NCBI GenBank assembly: GCA_031291325.1
Contig: JARLJG010000034.1
Location: forward strand, 3,141-67,140
Origin: Burkholderiaceae bacterium
GTDB lineage: Bacteria > Pseudomonadota > Gammaproteobacteria > Burkholderiales > Burkholderiaceae_D
Reading direction: 5' to 3'
Length of the DNA: 64,000 nucleotides
Of the stretch, positions 3,024-12,033 are shown piece by piece. The position numbers and the translations under genes were made by a program. The first letter of the stretch is position 1, and each line of letters opens with the position of its first letter. The notes beneath the pieces are model-generated. The model saw only the letters and a list, made by a program, of their open reading frames with translations. It had not been told where the DNA came from and did no database searches.

Positions 3024-4118
3024 TCAGGCGACTTCCTTGCTTTCCTTCGGTTCCTTGGCGGATTTTTTCGCCGCAACCGGTTCAGCAGTCGGAAGCGGCG
3101 CCAATTCCGGCACGCCGAGCGATACCCGCACCTTGTTCTCGATCTCGCGCGCCAATTCGGGACGCTCTTTCAGGTAATTGCGTGCATTGTCCTTGCCTTG
3201 CCCGATGCGCTCGCCGTTGTAGCTATACCAAGCGCCGGATTTTTCGACAATTTTCGCTTCCGCGCCAAGGTCGAGGATTTCGCCTTCGCGCGATGTGCCT
3301 TCGCCATACAAGATATCGAAATGCGCTTCCTTGAACGGCGGCGCAATCTTGTTCTTGACGACTTTGACCTTGGTTTCGTTGCCGATCACTTCCTCGCCCG
3401 ACTTGATCGATCCGGTGCGACGGATATCCAGGCGCACCGACGCGTAGAATTTCAACGCATTGCCGCCGGTCGTCGTCTCCGGGTTGCCGAACATCACACC
3501 GATCTTCATGCGGATCTGGTTGATGAAAATCACCAGTGTGTTGGTGCGATTGATCGAGCCAGTCAGTTTGCGCAGCGCCTGCGACATCAGCCGCGCCTGC
3601 AAGCCCGGCAAGGAGTCGCCCATGTCGCCTTCGATTTCCGCGCGCGGCGTCAATGCAGCAACCGAATCGACCACGATCAAGTCGACCGCGCCGGAACGCA
3701 CCAGCGCGTCGGTAATTTCCAACGCCTGCTCGCCGGTATCCGGTTGCGAAATCAGCAAGTCCGACAAATTGATGCCCAACTTTTGCGCATAGCCGACGTC
3801 GAGTGCATGTTCGGCATCGATAAACGCGCAGGTGCCGCCCAATTTCTGCATTTCAGCAATGGTTTGCAGGGTCAAGGTCGTCTTGCCCGACGATTCCGGC
3901 CCGTAAATTTCGACCACGCGGCCACGCGGCAAGCCGCCCACGCCCAATGCAATATCGAGTCCCAGCGAGCCGGTCGAGACGACTTGCACCTCTTCGACTA
4001 CCGCGCCGTCTTCCATGCGCATCACCGAACCCTTGCCGAATTGCTTCTCGATCTGCGCCAGCGCGGCAGCCAGTGCTTTGCTCTTGTCGGAGCTTGGTGC
4101 GTTTCTCTTGTCGTCCAT
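3024..4118 (-). CDS. recA: Recombinase RecA
   Basis: The ORF reads [35 protein letters not shown]... with Walker [10 protein letters not shown]. The track start at 4163 was trimmed to the ATG at 4118, which gives the canonical N-terminus. Confidence 0.97.
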
Positions 4119-4185
4119 GAGGATTCTTTCAACGGTTGGGTACAAAACAGCTTTGATACACAATTGGATTTAACTGCACAGCACA

Positions 4186-4205
4186 TACTGTATAAAAAAA
4201 CAGTG
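4186..4205 (-). promoter_or_regulatory. LexA SOS box (TACTGTATAAAAAAACAGTG) upstream of recA
   Basis: A perfect CTGT-N8-ACAG palindrome at 4188-4203, 70-85 nt upstream of the recA ATG. This is the beta/gammaproteobacterial LexA consensus. Confidence 0.8.
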
Positions 4206-4432
4206 CTTTATGCAAGCGATGGATGCATATTTGATCGATATTTTTATGGTTATCTATTTAATCATACAAAAGCAGCGACCCGCGATAGCTTTCAGTCAAA
4301 CGCAATTGGTATCAGCACGTCGCTCATTTGCAACTATAAGCAACTATTACCACAGCATTCATTGATTGTGCTTGCGAACATCGAACTTGCGATTTACGAT
4401 GACCATACTCGCCAATGCCCAAGGAGCGCACA

Positions 4433-7400
4433 ATGTCTTCTTTGCCGTCGTATTTTGCCAAAAAGAGCTTGGAGAAAATCCAGGCCAAGCTGCCGATAAA
4501 TCATCAAAAGTTGGCGCGGCAACTAGTCGATATGATCGAGCCAAGCGGGCAAATCGGCGCGGGTGCGCTGCGCGACGCGCTATTCCCGATGGCGACCGAC
4601 AAGAGCGGCAACGAAATGTTGCGGCGGCTGCTCAATAGCATCAATGAGGCGGCCAAGGCACTCGGCATGGATTTCAGTGCCGAAATCACGGCAGACAAAA
4701 AAGCCGGTGCCGACCGCATGGTGTGGTTTGAAGGCGTAGCTGAATTGGTCAATCGCCCCCATACCAGCGAATTGAATCGCATTCCCGAAGAAATGCGCGT
4801 TGTCAGCCAGCGCGGATTTTTGCTCGATAAAACGGTCGTGTTGATGACCTTCAACAAGCATGAAACCCAAGCGGTGTTCGATGTGTTTAGCGGCGGCAGC
4901 GTGCCACCATTTGAACGTCGCGGCAGCTACACGTATAACCGGCTGGGCGTGCATGGCGATCTTGAAGTCCTGCACGTGGTAAGCGCGCAAGGAAACCTGG
5001 AATCGCTAGCCACTGCCCAGGCAGCAGTCGATGCATGGCACCCGTGCGCGATTATCCCGGTGGGGGTCGCTTTCGGTATCGACTCCAAGAGCCAAAGCCT
5101 GGGCGATGTGCTGGCGGCGGAATACTTGCGCGACTACGAAATGGTTCGAGTCAATGCAGACGACACCGTAACCCCGAGAGGAAACCGTCCGCGCGCCAGC
5201 GACCTGCTAATAAACGAGATTCGGCACCTGGATCATCGCCATCAGCAAAAAGTCGACTGGCCTAAAATTCACTTGGGTACCGTCTTGTGCGGCAATAAGC
5301 TGGTGGATAACCGACCGTTCCGCGACGATTTGCTAAAAATCGAACCGGAAGCGATCGGCGGCGAGATGGAAGGAATCGGCGTCGAATCCGTCGCCCGCCG
5401 CGAAAAAATCGACTGGATTCTGGTCAAGGGCATCTGCGATTGGGCCGATGGCGGTAAAACGACCGACACCAAGGCGCGCGATCAGCAAACCGCTGCACAT
5501 AATGCGGCGCAGGTGGTCAAGGCGCTATTGGCGGAACCGTCGCTGTTTCCGCCTGACAAACCGCATTTTTCCGATCCGGTTCCGGCGCAGCCTGCCTCCC
5601 AGTCTGCTTTGTCCAATACGCCGCCCAGTGTGCGCCGCATGGGGATGCGCGACTGCGACAAGCTTTCATCGCACTTGTTTGTCCCGGATGCGCCCGGCGC
5701 GTCGACGCGGCTTAGTGACAGCAAAGAGCCGTCCGCCGAATCCAAAAAAATGGAAAATGCCGCCAGCGTGCCGGTGCTGACCCATCTGAAAGAATGGATC
5801 GCCGATCCCGCTGCGCCGCCGCTGTTTGCGCTTTTAGCCGAATACGGCATGGGAAAAACCATCACTAGCCAGCAACTGGCGCTGAAACTCGACGAAGCGC
5901 ACAAGCACGAACCGTCGCAGCCGATTCCGCTTTACTTCGACTTGCGCCATCTGACCCAACTCGACAAACGCGTGCCGACGTTGAGCGAGACATTGAAAGA
6001 ATGCATGGCGCGCGGCTGGCAAGACGACGGCAGCAACGCCGATTACTCGATGGAAGACGTGCATCGCTGGATAGCGCAAAAGGCGGTGGTGATTTTCGAT
6101 GGCTTGGATGAAGTGCTGGTGAAGCTGACCGAGAGGGACGGCATCACGTTTACCAATAATCTGTTGAAACTGATGTTCGATGCCGGGCAGCTCGCCAAAA
6201 CCGCAGGCAGGCCGCTGCAAGTGAAGGTCCTGCTGACTTGCCGCACCCAGTATTTTCCGACGCTGCAAGCGCAAAACAATTATTTCACCCAAAGCGAGCG
6301 CGGCGAATTTGCGCCGGAAAAATACCGCGCAATGGTCTTGCTGCCCTGGGGAGAAGAGCAAGTCGAACGCTATCTGGGAAGCGCGCTGCCGGAGATGGAC
6401 ATTGCCGCCGTGTTGGACATGGTCAAGGCCGTGCATAACCTGGAAGAATTGACGCATCGCCCCTATACGCTCAGGCTGATTTCCGAATTCATCCCCGAAA
6501 TCGAGCGCGACCGCGCCGCAGGGCGAGCCGTCTACGGCGTCACGCTGTACCGCAACATGGCCAATAAATGGCTGGCGCGCGACACCGGCAAGCATGTTAT
6601 CCGGTCGTATCACAAACTGAAGCTGGCATCGCATTTGGCCGCCCACATTTGGCAAACCAAGCGCAGCGCGTTAAGCGTCGAAGACTTGAACAACTGGTTT
6701 CATCAATGGCGCGACAGCGAGCCGGAATTACAGAAGCTTTACGCAGACGTGAATTCCGAACAACTGGAAGAAGATTTGCGCACCGCTACCTTCCTTTGCC
6801 GGGTCGACGATGCGGATGGCAGCGCATTCCGCTTCTCTCACACGTCGCTGCTGGAATTTTTTCTGGCGAGTTACCTGTTTCAGGCGATGCAAGATAATCG
6901 ACCTGAACGCTGGGCCATGCGGGTGCCCAGCAGTGAAACCCTGGATTTCCTTGGACAAATGCTCGCCGAAGCGAATAGGCCTGCACTATTGCAAACGCTG
7001 CAAGCGTGGCGTAAAAATTACCGGGCGCAGGCTAGCGAACTGTTGCTGGCTTATGCGCTGCAAGCGTTGAAAGACGGCTGGCCTGCGCCGATCTTGCATG
7101 GCATCGACTTGAGCGGCGCAAACTTGCGCGGCTGGGAAATGCTAGGGAGCGCCGACGCCCCGCTGGAACTGGGGCCGGCCAATTTCACTGGCGCCGATCT
7201 GCGCGACGCGCTTTTTACGCATGTCCGACTTGCGGGGGCGTGCTTCGATACCGCGCGGATGGACTCCGCCAACTTGCTCGATTGCGATGCAAGGCAAGCC
7301 AGTTTCGACGGCGCGGAGTTGACTGCATGTATTTTCCGCAAGTGCAAGCTGGATGGCAGCAGGTGGAATAATGCGCGTGGTTACCGGACGCAATGGCTGT

Positions 7401-8692
7401 TATGCGATCCCGCCCAGGAAACCTGGGCTGATGGCCCGGTTCAACAGGCTGGCTTGTTGCATGCGTTGCTTCCCCGCCTTGGGGAGAACTTTAAAACATC
7501 GAAAAACCTGGCTTGGCTGAATGGTCATCAGGACATTGTGACGTCGTGCGCGTGGTCACCGGACGGCCGCATGCTGGCGTCGACCGGTGTTGACGGCACG
7601 GTCAGTCTGTGGGACGGCGCGAGCGGCGAAGCGTTGCGCACGCTCTCCGGTCATGAGGCCTCGGTAACGTCGTGCGCTTGGTCGCCGGACGGCCACATGC
7701 TGGCGTCGGCCGGAAGTGACGGCACGGTCAGGCTGTGGGACGGCGCGAGCGGCGAAGCGTTGCGCACGCTCTCCGGTCATCAGGACTGGGTAACGTCGTG
7801 CGCGTGGTCGCCGGACGGCCGCATGCTGGCGTCGTCCGGGAGTGACGGCACGGTCAGGCTGTGGGACGGCGCGAGCGGCGAAGCATTGCGCACGCTCTCC
7901 TGTCATGGGAACTCGGTAATGTCGTGCGCGTGGTCGCCGGACGGCCGCATGCTGGCGTCGTCCGCGCATGACGGCACGGTCAGGCTGTGGGACGGCGCGA
8001 GTGGTGAAGCTTTGCGCACGCTCTCCGGTCATGGGGCCTGGGTAACGTCGTGCGCGTGGTCGCCGGACAGCCTCATGCTGGCGTCGACCGCGCATGACGG
8101 CACGGTCAGGCTGCGGGACGGCGCGAGCGGCAAAGCATTGCGCACGCTCTCCGGTCATCAGGCCTCGGTAAGGTCGTGCGCGTGGTCGCCGGACGGCCGC
8201 ATGCTGGCGTCGTCCGGGGATGACGGCAGGGTCAGGCTGTGGGACGGCGCGAGCGGCGAAGCATTGCGCACACTCTCCGGTCATGAGGGCCCGGTAAGGT
8301 CGTGCGCGTGGTCGCCGGACGGCCGCATGCTGGCGTCGACTGGGCATGACGGCAGGGTCAGGCTGTGGGACGGCGCGAGCGGCGAAGCGTTGCGCACGCT
8401 CTCCGGTCATGAGGACTGGGTAACGTCGTGCGCGTGGTCGCCAGACGGTCGTATGCTGGCGTCGACCGGGGATGACGGCACGCTCAGGCTTTGGGACAGC
8501 GCAAGCGGCGAAGCGTTGCGCATTTGCGCGCTTTGTCAAAGTCGAACCGGCGATTTGGCTGGCTACGCAGTCTGGACTCCGCAAAACAACAAGATCGTGG
8601 AATTGTCCGGCGATGCCTGGCGCTATCTAGCGTGGCAGGGAATAGATGCAGATGGCCGCATCACGCGCCTGCCGCTGGAGATTTTCAGCTAG
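4433..8692 (+). CDS. STAND/NLR-like protein: unknown N-terminal region, MTAN/PNP-type nucleosidase-like domain, NACHT-type P-loop NTPase, pentapeptide repeats and 8x WD40. Candidate antiphage NLR.
   Basis: One uninterrupted frame, with RBS AAGGAG (4421-4426) 6 nt before the ATG at 4433. The track start at 4415 is in the same frame. Motifs:
- GGEMEG (5357-5374) and VKGICDWAD (5423-5449), resembling the MTA/SAH nucleosidase catalytic motifs.
- Walker A AEYGMGKT (5837-5860) and Walker B VVIFDGLDE (6086-6112).
- Pentapeptide-like run DLSGANLRG...ANFTGADLRDALFTHVRLAGACFDTARMDSANLLDCDARQASFDGAELTACIFRKCKLDGSRW (7097-7366).
- Eight 42-aa WD40 units (7523-8530). Confidence 0.85.
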   Translation: MSSLPSYFAKKSLEKIQAKLPINHQKLARQLVDMIEPSGQIGAGALRDALFPMATDKSGNEMLRRLLNSINEAAKALGMDFSAEITADKKAGADRMVWFEGVAELVNRPHTSELNRIPEEMRVVSQRGFLLDKTVVLMTFNKHETQAVFDVFSGGSVPPFERRGSYTYNRLGVHGDLEVLHVVSAQGNLESLATAQAAVDAWHPCAIIPVGVAFGIDSKSQSLGDVLAAEYLRDYEMVRVNADDTVTPRGNRPRASDLLINEIRHLDHRHQQKVDWPKIHLGTVLCGNKLVDNRPFRDDLLKIEPEAIGGEMEGIGVESVARREKIDWILVKGICDWADGGKTTDTKARDQQTAAHNAAQVVKALLAEPSLFPPDKPHFSDPVPAQPASQSALSNTPPSVRRMGMRDCDKLSSHLFVPDAPGASTRLSDSKEPSAESKKMENAASVPVLTHLKEWIADPAAPPLFALLAEYGMGKTITSQQLALKLDEAHKHEPSQPIPLYFDLRHLTQLDKRVPTLSETLKECMARGWQDDGSNADYSMEDVHRWIAQKAVVIFDGLDEVLVKLTERDGITFTNNLLKLMFDAGQLAKTAGRPLQVKVLLTCRTQYFPTLQAQNNYFTQSERGEFAPEKYRAMVLLPWGEEQVERYLGSALPEMDIAAVLDMVKAVHNLEELTHRPYTLRLISEFIPEIERDRAAGRAVYGVTLYRNMANKWLARDTGKHVIRSYHKLKLASHLAAHIWQTKRSALSVEDLNNWFHQWRDSEPELQKLYADVNSEQLEEDLRTATFLCRVDDADGSAFRFSHTSLLEFFLASYLFQAMQDNRPERWAMRVPSSETLDFLGQMLAEANRPALLQTLQAWRKNYRAQASELLLAYALQALKDGWPAPILHGIDLSGANLRGWEMLGSADAPLELGPANFTGADLRDALFTHVRLAGACFDTARMDSANLLDCDARQASFDGAELTACIFRKCKLDGSRWNNARGYRTQWLLCDPAQETWADGPVQQAGLLHALLPRLGENFKTSKNLAWLNGHQDIVTSCAWSPDGRMLASTGVDGTVSLWDGASGEALRTLSGHEASVTSCAWSPDGHMLASAGSDGTVRLWDGASGEALRTLSGHQDWVTSCAWSPDGRMLASSGSDGTVRLWDGASGEALRTLSCHGNSVMSCAWSPDGRMLASSAHDGTVRLWDGASGEALRTLSGHGAWVTSCAWSPDSLMLASTAHDGTVRLRDGASGKALRTLSGHQASVRSCAWSPDGRMLASSGDDGRVRLWDGASGEALRTLSGHEGPVRSCAWSPDGRMLASTGHDGRVRLWDGASGEALRTLSGHEDWVTSCAWSPDGRMLASTGDDGTLRLWDSASGEALRICALCQSRTGDLAGYAVWTPQNNKIVELSGDAWRYLAWQGIDADGRITRLPLEIFS
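7523..8530 (+). repeat. Eight tandem, in-frame 126-bp repeats encoding near-identical WD40 blades
   Basis: Units start at 7523, 7649, 7775, 7901, 8027, 8153, 8279 and 8405. Each encodes GHxxxVxSCAWSPDGRMLASxxxDGTVRLWDGASGEALRTLS. Units 2 and 3 differ at 8 of 126 nt by manual alignment. Confidence 0.95.
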
Positions 8693-8879: not shown

Positions 8880-9623
8880 ATGCTGATTGCCATATTGAGT
8901 GACTTGCACGCCAATCGGGAAGCGTCCGCCGCCTGCCTGGATCACGCCGCCGCGCAGGGTGCCGAGCTGTATGCGTTTCTCGGCGACCTGGTCGGCTACG
9001 GCGCCGACCCAGCCTGGACGGTCGACACGGTCATGGGGTATGCGCAACGCGGCGCCCTGGTGGTGTACGGCAATCACGACCAGGCGGTCGCCCGGCAAGC
9101 CGGTGCGCAGATGAACGCGGTGGCAAGGCAAGCGGTGGAATGGACGCGCGCGCAACTGAGCGCCGAGCAACTTGCGTTTCTCGCCGGCCTGCCGCTGACT
9201 GTGGAGCGCGACGATTGCCTGTTCGTGCACGCCAGCGCCGCCCAACCCGAGCAATGGGAATACGTGACCGACACGCAAGACGCGGTGCGAAGCATGTATG
9301 CGACGCGTTGCCGGATTACCTTTTGCGGCCATGTGCACGGCCCGGCGCTGTATCACATGTCGCCGACCGGGAAGGTCGCGGCCTTTGCGCCGGCGGTCGG
9401 CTATGGCATTCCGCTCGGCCCGCAGCGCCGCTGGCTGGCGATTCCCGGTTCGGTCGGGCAGCCGCGCGACGGCAATCCTGCCGCCGGCTACGCGCTGTAC
9501 GACCAGTACGTGGGGGAGTTGACTTATCACCGCGTGCCCTACGATCACGAAAGCGCGGCCAAGAAAATTCTTGCGGCCGGATTGCCGCCCCGCTTCGCCT
9601 CGCGGCTGGCGCTCGGCGTGTAG
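8880..9623 (+). CDS. Metallophosphoesterase family protein (PPP-type Ser/Thr phosphatase-like)
   Basis: MLIAILSDLHAN...FLGDLVGYG...VYGNHD...FCGHVHG are classic calcineurin-like metallophosphoesterase motifs. The ATG at 8880 was chosen inside track ORF 8844-9623. Confidence 0.8.
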   Translation: MLIAILSDLHANREASAACLDHAAAQGAELYAFLGDLVGYGADPAWTVDTVMGYAQRGALVVYGNHDQAVARQAGAQMNAVARQAVEWTRAQLSAEQLAFLAGLPLTVERDDCLFVHASAAQPEQWEYVTDTQDAVRSMYATRCRITFCGHVHGPALYHMSPTGKVAAFAPAVGYGIPLGPQRRWLAIPGSVGQPRDGNPAAGYALYDQYVGELTYHRVPYDHESAAKKILAAGLPPRFASRLALGV

Positions 9624-9625
9624 CG

Positions 9626-11074
9626 ATGCCGACCACCTTGCGGCCCGAGCCGGGCATGATTATCGACGGCTTCCGTCTTGAAGAACAGTTGCACCAGGGC
9701 GGGATGGCGCTGCTGTGGCGTGTCACGCGCGTCGAGGACAACCAGGACGACAGGAACGAAAGCGGTGCCGCGCTGCCGTTGATGATGAAGATTCCGTTCC
9801 TCGGCGACAACGACGATCCGACTGCCATCGTCGGCTTTGAAGTCGAGCAAATGATCATGCCCAGGTTGAGCGGCCCGCATGTGCCGCTGTTCGTCGCGGC
9901 GGGCGACTTCACCAGCAATCCGTATATCGTGATGGAGCAAATCGCCGGTAATTCGCTGCGCGCCCGCTTCGACGCCGCGCCGCTGGCGGCGAACGAAGTG
10001 GTGGCGATCGGCGCCAAGATTGCCACGGCGCTGCACGATTTGCATCGGCAACAGGTGATACACCTCGACCTCAAACCGAGTAACGTGATGTTCCGCGAAA
10101 ATGGCGAGGCCGTATTGATCGACTTCGGCCTGTCGCGCCACGACAAGCTGCCGGACTTGCTGGCCGAGGAATTCCGCCTGCCGATCGGCACCGCACCGTA
10201 TATTTCGCCGGAACAGGTTCTGCATATCCGCAACGACCCGCGCAGCGACTTGTTTGCGCTGGGTGCGCTGCTTTACCACCTGTGCACCGGCCAGCGCGCG
10301 CATGGCAATCCGAGCTCGGTGCGCGGCTTGCGGCGCCGCCTGTACCGCGATCCCATTCCACCGCGCGCGCACAATCCGCAAATCATGCCCTGGCTGCAGG
10401 AAATCATCCTGCGCTGCCTGGAAGTCGACCCGGCGCGACGCTATGACAGCGCCGCGCAGCTTGCCTTCAACCTGAATCACCCGGAACAAGTGGCGTTGAC
10501 CGAGCGCGCCCTGAAGACCCGCAGCGACCGCTGGCACTGGCTGCTCAAGCGCTGGTTCGACGCCTCCAGCTTCCAGCCGGTCCCGCATCAATCGGCTGGC
10601 CGGCAATTGTCGAAATCGCCCATCGTGGTGGTGGCGATCAATCTGGCGAAAGGGTCGCTGGCGCTCGACGAGGCGCTGCGCACCACCGCGCGGCGCATCC
10701 TGCTCACCGAGCCAGGCGCGCGCCTGGCTTGCGTAACGGTGCAAAAAACCAACCGCATCGGCATGGATGTGTTGACCGACCAGGAAGGGCAAAACCTGCA
10801 CGTCAAGCACCTGGTGGAACTCAAGCATTGGGCCAGGCCATTGCAACTCGCGGGCGACCGCACCACCTTTCACGTGCTGGAAGCGCCCGATCCGGCTGCC
10901 GCCATCGTCGACTATGCGCGCAGCAACGATGTCGACCACATCGTCATCGGCTCGCGCGGCACTTCGATGCTGCGCCGCTACCTGGGCAGCGTGTCGTCGC
11001 AGGTGGTGGCGCAAGCCGATTGCAGCGTGACGGTCGTCAAGTCGCCGCGCGCCGCGCAGGAGCGGAGGAATTGA
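9626..11074 (+). CDS. Ser/Thr protein kinase fused to a C-terminal universal stress protein (USP) domain
   Basis: The ATG at 9626 is 2 nt after the phosphoesterase stop. Hanks kinase motifs are present: HLDLKPSNVMF, IDFGLS, TAPYISPEQ. The C-terminus (VVVAINL...HIVIGSRGTSMLRRYLGSVSSQVVAQADCSVTVVK) is USP-like. Confidence 0.85.
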   Translation: MPTTLRPEPGMIIDGFRLEEQLHQGGMALLWRVTRVEDNQDDRNESGAALPLMMKIPFLGDNDDPTAIVGFEVEQMIMPRLSGPHVPLFVAAGDFTSNPYIVMEQIAGNSLRARFDAAPLAANEVVAIGAKIATALHDLHRQQVIHLDLKPSNVMFRENGEAVLIDFGLSRHDKLPDLLAEEFRLPIGTAPYISPEQVLHIRNDPRSDLFALGALLYHLCTGQRAHGNPSSVRGLRRRLYRDPIPPRAHNPQIMPWLQEIILRCLEVDPARRYDSAAQLAFNLNHPEQVALTERALKTRSDRWHWLLKRWFDASSFQPVPHQSAGRQLSKSPIVVVAINLAKGSLALDEALRTTARRILLTEPGARLACVTVQKTNRIGMDVLTDQEGQNLHVKHLVELKHWARPLQLAGDRTTFHVLEAPDPAAAIVDYARSNDVDHIVIGSRGTSMLRRYLGSVSSQVVAQADCSVTVVKSPRAAQERRN

Positions 11075-11222: not shown

Positions 11223-11331
11223 TTGAGCGTAATTTTGAAAAAATACCTGGGAAATACCACGCATGGGTATTCATGCCGTCGATTCTCCCGTAAAGTGGCA
11301 ATATCACTTAATCAGCTTCCCTAAACCGATC

Positions 11332-12033
11332 ATGCGTATTTTGCTTGCCGAAGACGACAGCGTGTTGGCCGACGGCCTGACACGGTCCTTGCGCCAATCC
11401 GGCTACGTGACCGATTGCGTGGGCAGCGGCACCGAGGCCGATACCGCGTTGGCGACCCAGGATTTCGATTTGCTCATTCTCGACCTGGGGCTGCCGAAAA
11501 TGTCCGGCCTGGAAGTCTTGCGGCGCTTGCGCTCGCGCAATTCGCGCGTGCCGGTGTTGATCCTGACGGCGGTCGATTCGGTCGAACAGCGCGTCAAGGG
11601 GCTGGACCTGGGCGCCGACGATTACATGGCCAAGCCGTTTGCGTTGTCCGAACTGGAGGCGCGCGTGCGCGCGCTGACGCGGCGCGGCGCCGGCGGCGGG
11701 CCGACGGTCATCAAGCATGGCCCGCTGTGTTACGATCAAGTGGGGCGCATCGCCACCATCAACGATCAAATGCTGGATTTATCCGCGCGCGAACTGGGCT
11801 TGCTGGAAATTTTGCTGCAACGCACCGGACGCCTGGTCTCGAAAGAGCAGCTGGTAGACCATCTGTGCGAATGGGGCGACGAAGTCAGCAACAATGCGAT
11901 CGAAGTGTATATTCACCGGCTGCGCAAGAAGATCGAAATCGGCGGCATCCGCATCGCCACCGTGCGCGGGCTTGGATATTGTCTTGAGAAAATTCCCGAC
12001 GCGCCCGGCGCCAATGCGCCGGGCACCAGCTAG
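11332..12033 (+). CDS. OmpR/PhoB-family response regulator
   Basis: MRILLAEDDSVLADGL...DLLILDLGLPKMSG...ADDYMAKPF (receiver domain) plus a winged-helix C-terminus (...IEVYIHRLRKKI...TVRGLGY). ATG at 11332 within track ORF 11263-12033. Confidence 0.92.
   Translation: MRILLAEDDSVLADGLTRSLRQSGYVTDCVGSGTEADTALATQDFDLLILDLGLPKMSGLEVLRRLRSRNSRVPVLILTAVDSVEQRVKGLDLGADDYMAKPFALSELEARVRALTRRGAGGGPTVIKHGPLCYDQVGRIATINDQMLDLSARELGLLEILLQRTGRLVSKEQLVDHLCEWGDEVSNNAIEVYIHRLRKKIEIGGIRIATVRGLGYCLEKIPDAPGANAPGTS

What the first reader, a model, noticed from the sequence alone, without database searches (positions are those of the whole stretch)
7523..8530. Eight in-frame 126-bp repeats with substitutions focused on a few codons (fungal-NLR-style hypervariable WD40 array)
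Seen in sequence:
- Eight head-to-tail 126-bp units run from 7523 to 8530.
- Units 2 and 3 differ at 8 of 126 nt (about 94% identity).
- Across units the framework AWSPDGRMLAS...DGTVRLWDGASGEALRTLS is nearly invariant.
- Changes cluster at codons 2-5 (HQDI, HEAS, HQDW, HGNS, HGAW, HQAS, HEGP, HEDW), codon 7 (T/M/R) and codons 22-24 (TGV, AGS, SGS, SAH, TAH, SGD, TGH, TGD).

Established knowledge:
- These positions lie on loops of the top face of WD40 propellers, the usual ligand-binding surface.
- In fungal NWD/HET-E NLR genes, highly conserved WD repeats undergo concerted evolution and repeat shuffling, with diversifying selection at just such positions.

Inference: this is a recombination-prone sensor array that can quickly generate new recognition specificities. 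That would be unusual to document in a proteobacterial chromosome. Such repeats can also collapse or mis-assemble in short-read assemblies.
Basis: partly seen in the sequence, partly recalled or inferred. Interest (0 to 1): 0.7.

Follow-up and report, generated by a model that had tools for sequence, protein, structure and literature searches.

The report
Bacterial NLR with hypervariable WD40 sensor
The eight near-identical 126-bp repeats are real and form the WD40 sensor of a bacterial NLR-type immune protein whose target-facing residues are hypervariable, as in fungal NLRs; this kind of repeat sensor has already been described in bacteria, so this is a good new example, not a new kind of system.

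Summary
Observation confirmed. Window 7523-8530 holds eight in-frame 126-bp units (90% matches, no indels) inside a 1425-aa ORF (4415-8692, +). Its domains run NNH6, PNP_UDP nucleosidase, NACHT NTPase, pentapeptide beta-helix, 8 WD40 units, then a 53-aa tail.

Amino-acid change is concentrated at unit positions 3, 4, 5, 7, 21-23 and 26. In an AlphaFold2 model that matches eight-bladed propellers, these lie in the D-A loop and the B-C turn, or on strand residues next to them. By WD40 convention that is the top face.

About 70 homologues, mostly proteobacterial, share the architecture, usually with 14 units. Their arrays are homogenised within each protein and show no positional orthology between proteins. 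Their hypervariable positions (3, 4, 5, 7, 23, 25) correspond to the positively selected sites of fungal HET-D/E. One orthologue pair is 94% identical upstream of the array but only 23% identical at these positions.

The best reading is a single-gene, abortive-infection-type NLR. Ligand binding on the propeller would trigger NACHT oligomerisation and a PNP (probably ATP-nucleosidase) effector.

Highly repetitive bacterial WD40 domains with variable hotspot sites, and bacterial NLRs carrying them, are already published. Novelty is therefore a new member of a known kind.

Caveat: the source is a MAG. Unit number and order (8 against a modal 14) are unverified, and no sister strain was found.

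The parts
4415..8692 (+). Whole gene: 1425-aa NLR-like STAND protein (NCBI calls it from the ATG at 4433, giving 1419 aa). Domain order: NNH6, PNP_UDP, NACHT, pentapeptide, WD40 x8, tail.
   Evidence: ORF list and translation. Pfam hits. Identical to P0001, 'MAG: pentapeptide repeat-containing protein [Burkholderiaceae bacterium]'.
4448..4780 (+). NNH6, NACHT N-terminal helical domain 6 (aa 12-122).
   Evidence: Pfam PF22737, E = 1.2e-24, 87 bits against a cut-off of 27.
4955..5533 (+). PNP_UDP-type nucleosidase domain, the putative effector (aa 181-373). GGEMEG lies at 5357-5374 and ICDWADG at 5432-5452.
   Evidence: Pfam PF01048, E = 2.3e-11. PADLOC PDC-M60C (1.5e-10) and CBASS 'Effector, PN-superfamily' (1.6e-7). 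The EME and Asp motifs align with VEMEA and SDLANG of S. aureus MTA/SAH nucleosidase 3bl6/4gmh.
5786..6244 (+). NACHT NTPase core (aa about 458-610). Walker A GMGKT at 5846-5860. Walker B with the NACHT signature FDGLDE at 6095-6112.
   Evidence: Pfam NACHT PF05729, 27.4 bits against a cut-off of 26.7; NPHP3_N E = 1.3e-4. Motif positions. D[GAS]hDE signature as defined in 10.1101/2022.07.19.500537.
7091..7375 (+). Pentapeptide-repeat beta-helix linking the NACHT module to the propeller (aa about 893-987).
   Evidence: Pfam Pentapeptide E = 3.6e-10 and Pentapeptide_4. NCBIfam pentapeptide families. The AF2 model shows short strands about every 20 residues with pLDDT around 90.
7523..8530 (+). 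Eight 126-bp (42-codon) WD40 units with high internal conservation (aa 1037-1372). Hypervariable codons are 3, 4, 5, 7, 21-23 and 26 of each unit.
   Evidence: TRF. Per-codon table. Pfam WD40 E = 3.4e-107 with 8 stretches. pN/pS. AF2 pLDDT 93-97. Eight-bladed fold matches.
8531..8689 (+). Family-conserved 53-aa C-terminal tail, predicted as four further beta-strands at lower confidence.
   Evidence: Tails of 45-75 aa follow the last unit in most complete homologues. A conserved W/P/L pattern appears in alignment A1. DSSP and pLDDT of 67-89.

Best explanation
The repeats encode the ligand-sensing beta-propeller of a single-gene bacterial NLR-like (NACHT/STAND) immune protein.

**Shown**
- The domain order is NNH6, PNP_UDP, NACHT, pentapeptide, 8 WD40 units.
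- The eight units model as a closed eight-bladed propeller.
- Amino-acid variation is concentrated in the D-A loop, the B-C turn and adjacent strand ends. By WD40 convention these form the top face.
- In the protein family, units are homogenised within each gene at DNA level (concerted evolution), while a fixed set of top-face positions turns over quickly.

**Inferred**
- Homologous recombination, gene conversion or slippage between the 126-bp units keeps the framework uniform. This allows units to be duplicated, deleted and reshuffled.
- Point mutations at the top-face positions are kept by diversifying selection, so recognition specificity changes quickly.
- A phage or other foreign protein, or a modified host protein, binds the propeller and relieves autoinhibition.
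- The NACHT module then oligomerises in an NTP-dependent way. This brings the N-terminal PNP domains together and activates them.
- By analogy with Cap17/DtcC, the PNP domains cleave ATP/dATP (or a related nucleotide). That depletes the cell and aborts the infection.
For: **Architecture**
- Domains.
- Walker A GMGKT and the NACHT signature DGLDE are intact.
- The PNP motifs EME and Asp align with the corresponding motifs of MTA/SAH nucleosidase. From my own knowledge these are the ribose-binding Glu and the catalytic Asp.
- PADLOC gives hits to PNP defence effectors.
- The same PNP domain (about 40-44% identity) is fused in other hits to NB-ARC/TPR, NACHT/FGE-sulfatase, SIR2-like and TIR modules. 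Some members of the same NNH6-NACHT family carry TIR instead of PNP. Effector swapping is typical of conflict systems.

**Structure**
- AF2 model: pLDDT 87.1, pTM 0.78, repeat region 93-97.
- Best whole-target matches are eight-bladed propellers: Tako8 6y7o (TM 0.94, rmsd 2.1), ODA16 5nnz (0.94), and Rsa4. The top E-value is the 14-repeat Nostoc protein 2ymu.
- DSSP places positions 3-5 in the D-A loop, 7 as the second residue of strand A, 21-22 at the end of strand B, 23 in the B-C turn, and 26 as the first residue of strand C.

**Selection**
- Hot set defined from 18 other proteins (3, 4, 5, 7, 23, 25): window pN is 0.368 there against 0.061 elsewhere, with array-wide pS 0.144.
- The Methylovulum array on a 3.78-Mb contig gives pN 0.291 against 0.025, with pS 0.116.

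**Concerted evolution**
- 230 of 249 units have their nearest neighbour in the same protein.
- Framework identity is 0.81 within proteins and 0.53 between them.
- There is no positional orthology: 0.543 at the same index against 0.540 at different indices.
- The last unit is less homogenised (0.73 against 0.90).
- Identical-codon use at identical residues is 0.88 within the window array and 0.52-0.61 between arrays.

**Turnover**
- P0022 and P0024 are 93.7% identical upstream of the array, 78% in the repeat framework and 23% at hot positions.

**Literature**
- The PNP clade in CBASS, Detocs, Avs and fungal NLRs is an ATP nucleosidase (10.1101/2023.01.24.525353).
- Bacterial NACHT proteins defend against phage (10.1101/2022.07.19.500537).
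Against: - No experiment or phage-defence context supports the function. The gene lies between recA and a Ser/Thr kinase-Usp gene.
- The two homologue loci inspected are also surrounded by housekeeping genes, not defence islands.
- PADLOC has no full-length model for this protein.
- The PNP domain was not placed phylogenetically in the Cap17/DtcC clade. ATP as substrate is an analogy only.
- pN/pS above 1 among paralogous units that recombine is not a formal test of selection.
- pS restricted to the six hot codons is noisy, because they hold few synonymous sites.
- Family position 25 is invariant in the window array.
- Unit 5 carries W30R and other framework changes, which could mean decay or sequence error.
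- The array comes from a MAG and has 8 units where the family mode is 14.
Confidence: 0.72

Rival explanations
1. Assembly artefact in part. The gene and the repeat type are real, but the number, order or exact sequence of the units is a collapsed or chimeric short-read reconstruction of a longer array, for example 14 units.
For: - The source is a MAG contig with a single database member.
- The family mode is 14 units, including all hits on Mb-scale contigs checked (P0026, P0034, P0041, P0055, P0061).
- Many family members are partial and stop inside the array.
- Some complete-looking proteins have only 2-3 units, too few for a propeller.
- Illumina assemblies of 126-bp WD40 arrays of this type were shown to be fragmented, wrong or chimeric in Podospora (PMC12222747).
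- Units 4 and 5 carry odd framework changes, G1C and W30R.
Against: - The longest exact in-register repeat in the array is 55 nt, and all eight units are distinct. Reads of 100-150 nt or k-mers above 55 could resolve it.
- There are no indels, and the frame is intact through a family-typical terminal unit (…LRICA, compared with …LRIHA in P0026 and P0065) and the conserved tail.
- The eight units model as a closed eight-bladed propeller with pLDDT 93-97.
- An independent MAG protein, P0065, also has exactly 8 units.
Confidence: 0.25
2. Young duplication only. The units are alike because the array was amplified recently. There is no ongoing homogenisation or diversifying selection, and the variable codons are simply the least constrained surface sites.
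For: - Hu et al. 2017 interpret highly repetitive WD40 proteins as products of recent repeat duplication (PMC5587647).
- Surface loops tolerate substitutions.
- Within this single array, formal selection tests are weak.
Against: - The same state (high internal identity, about 14 units, no positional orthology) recurs in at least 18 divergent family members. That would need independent recent amplifications to the same size in each lineage.
- Lineage-specific framework differences are fixed across all units of close orthologues, for example ATTGEQLLNLQ against AATGEQLLNIQ.
- pN at hot codons (0.29-0.37) exceeds pS (0.12-0.14), whereas neutral drift would only let it reach pS.
- Hot positions are 23% identical between orthologues that are 94% identical elsewhere.
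Confidence: 0.08
3. Not immunity. The protein is a STAND-type signalling or regulatory protein, or a kin/allorecognition device, whose propeller binds an endogenous or conspecific partner, with the PNP domain acting in nucleoside metabolism or signalling.
For: - The gene has a core-chromosome setting next to recA, sucC, a kinase-Usp gene and a response regulator. Two homologue loci also lack neighbouring defence genes.
- NCBIfam's best enzymatic hit is MTA/SAH nucleosidase, though far below its cut-off.
- The fungal counterparts HET-D/E act in allorecognition (PMC12222747).
Against: - Hypervariable ligand-facing residues with fast turnover between orthologues are hard to reconcile with a conserved endogenous partner.
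- PNP is exchanged for TIR within the family, and the PNP domain is fused to other conflict-type modules.
- Tested bacterial NACHT proteins are antiphage, and many are single genes (10.1101/2022.07.19.500537).
- Kin recognition would still be a conflict function using the same mechanism.
Confidence: 0.12
4. Targeted mutagenesis (a diversity-generating retroelement or a similar mechanism) creates the variability at the hot codons.
For: DGR-driven hypermutation of sensors in bacterial NLR-like proteins is known for other sensor folds (PMC10907252).
Against: - No second copy or template of the unit exists elsewhere in the 64-kb window.
- Substitutions are not adenine-focused: 14 of 69 changes from the unit consensus start from A.
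- For the post-hoc variable codon set, pS at hot codons equals pS elsewhere (0.15 against 0.14), so there is no local excess of mutation.
- Known DGR targets are C-type lectin/FGS folds, not WD40.
Confidence: 0.02

Closest known systems
Fungal HNWD/NWD NLRs (Podospora anserina HET-D, HET-E, HET-R) and fungal PNP_UDP-NACHT-WD40 NLRs
   Same: - Tripartite layout of effector, NACHT and 42-aa WD40 units with about 80-90% internal identity.
- Concerted evolution of the units.
- Hypervariable sites in equivalent places. Fungal codons 7, 9, 25, 27 flank the conserved codons 8 and 26 (PMC1805685), and the later numbering is 10, 11, 12, 14, 30, 32, 39 (PMC12222747). These correspond to positions 5, 7, 23, 25 (and 3, 4) flanking V6 and D24 here. 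The correspondence is my own register inference from that flanking pattern.
- PNP_UDP-NACHT-WD40 is a listed fungal architecture (PMC4986451).
   Different: - Bacterial, and apparently single copy. No paralogous donor array lies within 64 kb, whereas the fungal genes form a family that exchanges repeats.
- It has an NNH6 domain and a pentapeptide beta-helix that HET-D/E lack.
- The window array has 8 units modelled as one eight-bladed propeller. Reactive fungal alleles have 10-12 units plus 3 cryptic repeats, forming two 7-bladed propellers.
- Family position 25 is invariant here.
- No fungal protein appeared among the named sequence hits to the NACHT region, so homology of the NACHT module to the HET-D/E clade was not shown.
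- There is no RIP in bacteria.
Prokaryotic 'Highly-Repetitive' WD40 proteins (Hu et al. 2017, PMC5587647; e.g. Nostoc Npun_R6612, PDB 2ymu; Thermomonospora PkwA, PDB 5yzv)
   Same: - Internal identity is at least 0.7: mean pairwise unit identity is 0.80 here.
- The H2, S20, D24 and W30 positions I equate with the DH[S/T]W tetrad are conserved, except W30R in unit 5.
- Diversity is confined to the predicted interaction hotspot sites.
- 2ymu is the top Foldseek hit and 5yzv shares 48% identity.
   Different: - That paper catalogues the WD40 domains. It does not mention NACHT (0 occurrences).
- It attributes the repetitiveness to young duplications rather than to concerted evolution with diversifying selection.
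- Cyanobacteria and Planctomycetes are its WD40-rich phyla, whereas this family is mostly proteobacterial.
Bacterial NACHT proteins (bNACHT; Kibby et al., 10.1101/2022.07.19.500537) and Avs/STAND antiviral NTPases (PMC13581612)
   Same: - Single polypeptide with an N-terminal effector, a NACHT module carrying the D[GAS]hDE signature, and a C-terminal 'antigen-receptor-type' repeat sensor.
- NNH, PNPase, pentapeptide and beta-propeller domains are all in the domain vocabulary of that survey.
- WD40 propeller sensors are noted among defence STANDs.
   Different: - No member of this particular architecture is reported there as tested, as far as the text I could search shows.
- The clade assignment of this NACHT module was not determined here.
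- The characterised Avs sensors are mostly TPR-like.
Immune PNP / ATP-nucleosidase effectors (Cap17 of CBASS, DtcC of Detocs, PNP-Avs, fungal NLRN; 10.1101/2023.01.24.525353)
   Same: - A PNP_UDP-fold domain sits at the N-terminus of an NLR-like protein.
- The motifs I take to be the catalytic Asp and the ribose-binding Glu are conserved.
- PADLOC gives hits to PNP effector models.
   Different: - Substrate and activity are untested.
- Placement inside the Cap17 clade, as opposed to housekeeping MTA/SAH nucleosidases, was not tested phylogenetically.
Apaf-1-type apoptosome sensors
   Same: A STAND NTPase with C-terminal WD40 propellers that bind a protein ligand and license oligomerisation (general model as cited in PMC7159879).
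   Different: - Apaf-1 has an AP-ATPase (NB-ARC) module, not NACHT.
- Its repeats are divergent.
- Its ligand is conserved.

Membership tests
NACHT-clade STAND NTPase (NLR-like) | P-loop Walker A (GxxxxGK[ST]) | tested here: met
   GEYGMGKT, with GMGKT at aa 478-482. It is nearly invariant in alignment A1.
NACHT-clade STAND NTPase (NLR-like) | Walker B with the NACHT signature D[GAS]hDE | tested here: met
   FDGLDE at aa 561-566. Signature as defined in 10.1101/2022.07.19.500537. Pfam NACHT scores 27.4 bits against a cut-off of 26.7.
NACHT-clade STAND NTPase (NLR-like) | Tripartite layout: N-terminal effector, central NOD, C-terminal superstructure-forming repeats | tested here: met
   PNP_UDP (aa 181-373), NACHT (about 458-610), WD40 x8 (1037-1372).
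NACHT-clade STAND NTPase (NLR-like) | Ligand-induced, NTP-dependent oligomerisation | not testable with these tools
   This needs biochemistry or cryo-EM.
Highly-Repetitive (high internal conservation) WD40 domain | Internal repeat identity of at least 0.7 | tested here: met
   Mean pairwise unit identity is 0.80 at protein level and 90% by TRF at DNA level.
Highly-Repetitive (high internal conservation) WD40 domain | Closed beta-propeller of 4-stranded blades | tested here: met
   AF2 pLDDT is 93-97 across the units, with four strands per unit. TM 0.94 to the eight-bladed Tako8 and ODA16. This is a prediction, not a solved structure.
Fungal-NLR-style hypervariable sensor (HNWD-like evolutionary regime) | Variation concentrated at top-face positions equivalent to the fungal selected sites | tested here: met
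   Window hot codons are 3, 4, 5, 7, 21-23. The family set is 3, 4, 5, 7, 23, 25. The fungal sites flank the conserved V and D equivalents (PMC1805685, PMC12222747). DSSP mapping. Position 25 is invariant in the window array.
Fungal-NLR-style hypervariable sensor (HNWD-like evolutionary regime) | Concerted evolution: units more alike within a gene than between orthologues, at DNA level | tested here: met
   230 of 249 nearest neighbours lie in the same protein; framework identity 0.81 against 0.53; no positional orthology. Identical-codon fraction 0.88 against 0.52-0.61.
Fungal-NLR-style hypervariable sensor (HNWD-like evolutionary regime) | Excess of non-synonymous change at the hot sites (diversifying selection) | tested here: inconclusive
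   pN at the independently defined hot codons is 0.368 against array-wide pS of 0.144. The Methylovulum array gives 0.291 against 0.116. The direction is clear. Simple counting on recombining paralogous units is not a formal test, and no population sample exists.
Fungal-NLR-style hypervariable sensor (HNWD-like evolutionary regime) | Repeat-number and repeat-order polymorphism among strains of one species | not testable with these tools
   No close relative was found. The next best protein is 61% identical. The exact 36-mer is absent from metagenome and genome collections, and the genome scan found nothing. At family level, complete-looking proteins have 3 to 14 units, but assembly error confounds this.
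Fungal-NLR-style hypervariable sensor (HNWD-like evolutionary regime) | Exchange of repeats among paralogous genes | tested here: not met
   No second array or unit copy lies in the 64-kb window. The rest of the genome was not available.
Immune PNP (Cap17/DtcC-type ATP nucleosidase) effector | PNP_UDP fold with catalytic Asp and ribose-binding Glu | tested here: met
   Pfam PF01048 E = 2.3e-11. EME and ICD align with VEMEA and SDLANG of S. aureus MTAN. The catalytic roles of these residues are from my own knowledge of MTAN.
Immune PNP (Cap17/DtcC-type ATP nucleosidase) effector | Phylogenetic placement in the defence-associated PNP clade, and ATP/dATP N-glycosidase activity | not tested
   Support is indirect only: PADLOC PNP effector hits, and the nearest PNP domains being fused to NB-ARC/TPR, FGE-sulfatase, SIR2-like and TIR modules. 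No Cap17 or DtcC sequence was on hand, and the activity needs an assay.
Anti-phage defence system | Defence-island context or demonstrated protection | tested here: not met
   Neighbours are recA, sucC, DUF2889, a kinase-Usp gene and a response regulator. Loci L001 and L002 are also flanked by housekeeping genes. Protection itself is untested.

The most novel reading that the evidence does not exclude
The NNH6-PNP-NACHT-pentapeptide-WD40 family may be a mainly proteobacterial, single-gene counterpart of the fungal HNWD receptors. On this reading, recombination among 126-bp units reshuffles hypervariable top-face residues and also changes propeller geometry. The 8-unit arrays (the window protein and P0065) would then be natural single eight-bladed variants of the usual 14-unit, two-propeller sensor. 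If so, genetically tractable bacteria could be used to test directly how repeat shuffling creates new NLR specificities.
Probability: 0.3. Interest if true: 0.6.

Novelty: new member of a known kind. Interest (0 to 1): 0.4.

Why it matters
The locus is a clean bacterial example of an NLR sensor evolving under a regime usually discussed for fungi. The scaffold is kept uniform by concerted evolution, while a handful of ligand-facing residues change quickly.

The family analysis adds numbers that the cited surveys do not give:
- The hot positions match the fungal selected sites.
- Homogenisation is visible at codon level.
- Hot positions have almost completely turned over between orthologues that are 94% identical elsewhere.

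If confirmed by long reads and phage assays, the family would be a tractable system for asking how repeat shuffling makes new specificities, and what a PNP effector does downstream of an NLR.

There is also a practical warning. Such arrays are often truncated or collapsed in metagenome assemblies, so repeat counts in databases should not be trusted.

Tried and rejected
**Searches for a sister strain or close orthologue to compare unit number and order (all empty)**
- Protein search: next best hit 61% identical.
- The search for related loci in genome contigs: none.
- Exact 36-mer scans of metagenome contigs and genome contigs: 0 matches.
- The look-up of encoding contigs for P0001: not on record.

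**Checks that came back negative**
- Relationship of the NACHT module to fungal HET-D/E: a search with aa 440-890 returned 73 hits, and all those carrying a source name are bacterial. Homology to that clade is not shown.
- DGR or targeted mutagenesis: rejected. There is no template copy in the window, no adenine bias, and pS is equal at hot and other codons.
- Antisense ORF 7556..8584 (342 aa): rejected as a by-product of the repeat. The + frame scores WD40 at E = 3.4e-107.
- tRNA and Rfam scans, looking for island borders or RNA elements: nothing.
- Promoter and terminator scans around the gene: nothing above the shuffled expectation.
- PDB sequence search with the N-terminal 884 aa: only housekeeping MTA/SAH nucleosidases at E around 1e-5. 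No solved immune PNP or NLR relative was found.

**Limits**
- Kibby et al. 2023 (PMC10294775) is not held. I used the preprint instead.
- No atomic coordinates were available. Top-face mapping therefore rests on DSSP plus the WD40 loop convention, not on computed solvent exposure.

Full report
**1. The observation**

Tandem Repeats Finder reports one large array in the window: 7523-8522, period 126, 7.9 copies, 90% matches, no indels, score 1552. Cut at 7523 + 126n, it gives eight in-frame 42-codon units ending at 8530.

- Pairwise differences run from 7 to 24 nt. Unit 8 is the outlier.
- A 36-nt framework segment is found eight times with at most 3 mismatches, against none in shuffles.
One numbering slip: the second cluster (TGV, AGS, …) is at codons 21-23, and codon 24 is the invariant Asp.
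- Codons 16 and 26 also vary.

**2. What carries the array**

The units lie in a 1425-aa ORF, 4415-8692 on the + strand. It is identical to a database protein annotated 'MAG: pentapeptide repeat-containing protein [Burkholderiaceae bacterium]', found on a single 110,765-nt contig.

Pfam gives this domain order:

| Domain | Residues |
|---|---|
| NNH6 | 12-122 |
| PNP_UDP_1 | 181-373 |
| NACHT | about 458-610 |
| Pentapeptide repeats | about 893-987 |
| WD40 x8 | 1037-1372 |
| C-terminal tail | 53 aa |

- Walker A is GMGKT, and the NACHT-type Walker B is FDGLDE.
- In the PNP domain, GGEMEG and ICDWADG align with VEMEA and SDLANG of S. aureus MTA/SAH nucleosidase. From my own knowledge these hold the ribose-binding Glu and the catalytic Asp. 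The enzyme therefore looks intact.
- PADLOC has no whole-protein model, but it hits two PNP effector models.
- The neighbours are housekeeping genes: recA (divergent), sucC, DUF2889, a Ser/Thr kinase-Usp fusion and an OmpR-type regulator.
- No tRNA or Rfam element lies in the window, and there is no second copy of the unit.

**3. Structure**

I modelled aa 885-1425 with AlphaFold2, using a 30-sequence family alignment. It gave pLDDT 87.1 and pTM 0.78, with 93-97 across the repeats.

- Each unit has four strands: A at positions 6-11, B at 17-22, C at 26-31 and D at 37-42.
- Positions 1-5 form the D-A loop and 23-25 the B-C turn. By the WD40 convention these are the top face.
- Positions 12-16 and 32-36 form the bottom loops.
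- The window's variable codons 3, 4, 5, 7, 21-23 and 26 are therefore top-face loop residues or the strand ends next to them. Only codon 16 is on the bottom.
- Foldseek's best whole-target matches are eight-bladed propellers: designer Tako8 (TM 0.94, rmsd 2.1), human ODA16 (0.94), and Rsa4/NLE1.
- The best E-value is the 14-repeat 'highly repetitive' Nostoc protein 2ymu.
- Eight units are thus structurally self-sufficient.
- I had no coordinates, so exposure was not computed.

**4. Selection within the array**

I first used the window's own variable codons. pN/pS is 2.3-2.9 at those codons and 0.20-0.27 elsewhere, and pS is equal in the two classes (0.15 against 0.14). That choice of codons is circular.

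I therefore defined hot positions from 18 other family members with at least 70% internal identity. Their within-array entropy peaks at positions 3, 4, 5, 7, 23 and 25.

| Array | pN, hot set | pN, other codons | pS, whole array |
|---|---|---|---|
| Window | 0.368 | 0.061 | 0.144 |
| Methylovulum psychrotolerans (3.78-Mb contig) | 0.291 | 0.025 | 0.116 |

- Five of the seven window columns with three or more residues fall in the six-position family set (P = 1.4e-4).
- Substitutions are not adenine-biased.
- These are counts on recombining paralogous units. They indicate diversifying selection but do not prove it.

**5. The family**

About 70 proteins share the full architecture. Source names are given for only about a quarter of them.

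- Most of the named ones are proteobacterial: Methylovulum, Methylomonas, Cellvibrio, Pseudoalteromonas, Nitrincola, Hydrogenophaga, Burkholderiales, Rhodospirillales and Roseospira.
- A few named hits come from Actinobacteria (Arachnia, Coriobacteriales, Bifidobacteriaceae) and one from Polyangiaceae.

Unit counts:
- The modal count is 14, including every hit I checked on a Mb-scale contig.
- Complete-looking proteins with fewer units include the window protein and P0065 (8 each), P0052 (11), P0062 (6), and several with 2-3.
- Many proteins are partial and end inside the array.

Concerted evolution is clear:
- 230 of 249 units have their nearest neighbour in the same protein.
- Framework identity is 0.81 within proteins and 0.53 between them.
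- There is no positional orthology (0.543 against 0.540).
- The last unit is less homogenised (0.73 against 0.90 identity to the array's own consensus).
- At identical amino acids, the identical-codon fraction is 0.88 within the window array and 0.52-0.61 between arrays. The homogeneity is therefore at DNA level, not only a protein constraint.

Turnover is fast. P0022 and P0024 are 93.7% identical over the 1027 aa before the array, 78% in the repeat framework and 23% at the hot positions. Lineage-specific framework differences are fixed across all units.

Two homologue loci (Methylovulum L001, and L002) are solitary genes among housekeeping genes. Some members of the same NNH6-NACHT family carry TIR in place of PNP.

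**6. Comparison with what is known**

- *Fungal selected sites.* Paoletti et al. 2007 found four strongly selected codons (7, 9, 25, 27) that flank two conserved consensus codons (8, 26) in Podospora NWD repeats (PMC1805685). Later work uses positions 10, 11, 12, 14, 30, 32 and 39 (PMC12222747). Both sets map, by a constant offset, onto positions (3, 4,) 5, 7, 23 and 25 here, which flank the conserved V6 and D24. The offset is my inference from that flanking pattern. The fungal parallel therefore holds position for position at family level.
- *Prior bacterial descriptions.* The phenomenon is not new for bacteria.
  - Hu et al. 2017 defined 'Highly-Repetitive' WD40 proteins (internal identity at least 0.7). 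Half are bacterial, and the paper noted diversity at the predicted interaction hotspots (PMC5587647).
  - Dyrka et al. state that bacterial NLRs, like fungal ones, have WD and TPR repeats with 80-90% internal identity and may diversify in the same way. They also call NLR architectures rare in Proteobacteria (10.1101/2020.01.06.895854).
  - Kibby et al. list NNH, PNPase, pentapeptide and beta-propeller domains in their NACHT survey and show that bacterial NACHT proteins are antiphage (10.1101/2022.07.19.500537).
  - Rousset et al. show that the immune PNP clade, present in Avs/NLR-like and fungal NLR proteins, cleaves ATP/dATP (10.1101/2023.01.24.525353).
- *NACHT relationship.* A search with the NACHT region alone returned no hit with a fungal source name. 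I cannot say the module belongs to the HET-D/E clade.

**7. Mechanism**

*Shown:* the architecture, intact NTPase and nucleosidase motifs, a modelled eight-bladed propeller, hypervariability placed on the top face, and family-wide DNA-level homogenisation with fast turnover at hot positions.

*Inferred:*
- Recombination, conversion or slippage between units maintains the scaffold and permits unit gain, loss and shuffling.
- Selection retains changes at the ligand-contacting positions.
- Ligand binding licenses NACHT oligomerisation, which activates the PNP effector.
- The effector probably depletes ATP/dATP and produces abortive infection.

The ligand, the substrate and the phenotype are all unknown.

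**8. Caveats and rivals**

- *Assembly.* The array comes from a MAG. Podospora work shows that Illumina assemblies of exactly this kind of 126-bp WD40 array are often wrong (PMC12222747).
  - Against collapse: no exact repeat exceeds 55 nt; all units differ; the frame, the family-typical terminal unit and the tail are intact; the propeller closes; and a second independent 8-unit protein exists.
  - I put about 0.25 on the unit number or order being wrong. That would not change what the feature is.
- *Young duplication without ongoing homogenisation.* This is contradicted by the family data.
- *A non-immune role.* This cannot be excluded, given the housekeeping context.
- *DGR-type mutagenesis.* This is effectively excluded.

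**9. Verdict**

The rarity claim is not supported.

This is a new member of a known kind: a bacterial NACHT NLR-like protein with a PNP effector and a highly repetitive, hotspot-variable WD40 sensor. Interest is moderate at 0.4. The value lies in the quantified parallel with fungal NLRs and in a potentially tractable family, not in a new principle.

Noticed in passing
window 4188-4203 (intergenic region 4119-4414): A perfect LexA/SOS-box consensus, CTGTATAAAAAAACAG, is the only match in the 64-kb window (about 0.36 expected by chance). It lies in the AT-rich 296-nt region between recA (3024..4118, minus strand) and the divergently transcribed NLR-like gene. It is most likely recA's own operator, about 70 nt upstream of the recA start. 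Whether the NLR gene is also SOS-regulated is unknown.
   Followed up: partly
window 7091-7375 (aa about 893-987): A pentapeptide-repeat beta-helix sits between the NACHT module and the propeller. It is conserved across the whole family. In the AF2 model it has pLDDT around 90 and short strands about every 20 residues. Its role (rigid spacer, or possibly a DNA mimic) is unexplained.
   Followed up: partly
window 8027-8152 (unit 5) and 7901-7903 (unit 4, codon 1): Unit 5 has four framework changes: G15S, R16L, W30R (which breaks the conserved Trp of the WD motif) and E36K. Unit 4 begins with Cys instead of Gly. This could be relaxed constraint on those blades, or sequence or assembly error.
   Followed up: no
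homologues P0073, P0146, P0150, P0175: Members of the same NNH6-NACHT family carry a TIR domain (PF13676) in place of the PNP domain. This is effector swapping on a conserved NACHT and sensor chassis.
   Followed up: no
homologues listed: A large share of the public family members are 'partial' proteins that end inside the WD40 array at contig ends. Several complete-looking ones have only 2-3 units, too few for a propeller. Database repeat counts for this family look heavily affected by assembly breaks or collapse.
   Followed up: partly
homologues P0033, P0038 compared with P0034: Within one clade whose N-terminal regions are 85-89% identical to one another, P0034 (Cellvibrio mixtus) has a highly homogenised 14-unit array with internal identity 0.76. 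P0033 and P0038 have much more divergent repeats (about 0.4). Homogenisation seems to be switched on or lost on short evolutionary timescales.
   Followed up: no
window 7556..8584, minus strand: A 342-aa antisense ORF spans the array. It is a by-product of the repeat's composition and periodicity, not a gene. The + frame scores WD40 at E = 3.4e-107.
   Followed up: yes
window 9140-11074 (+): Just downstream lies a 644-aa protein that fuses a Ser/Thr protein kinase domain to a universal stress protein (Usp) domain. It is followed by an OmpR-type response regulator at 11263-12033. Neither gene is found next to the homologues in L001 or L002, so they are probably unrelated to the NLR gene.
   Followed up: partly
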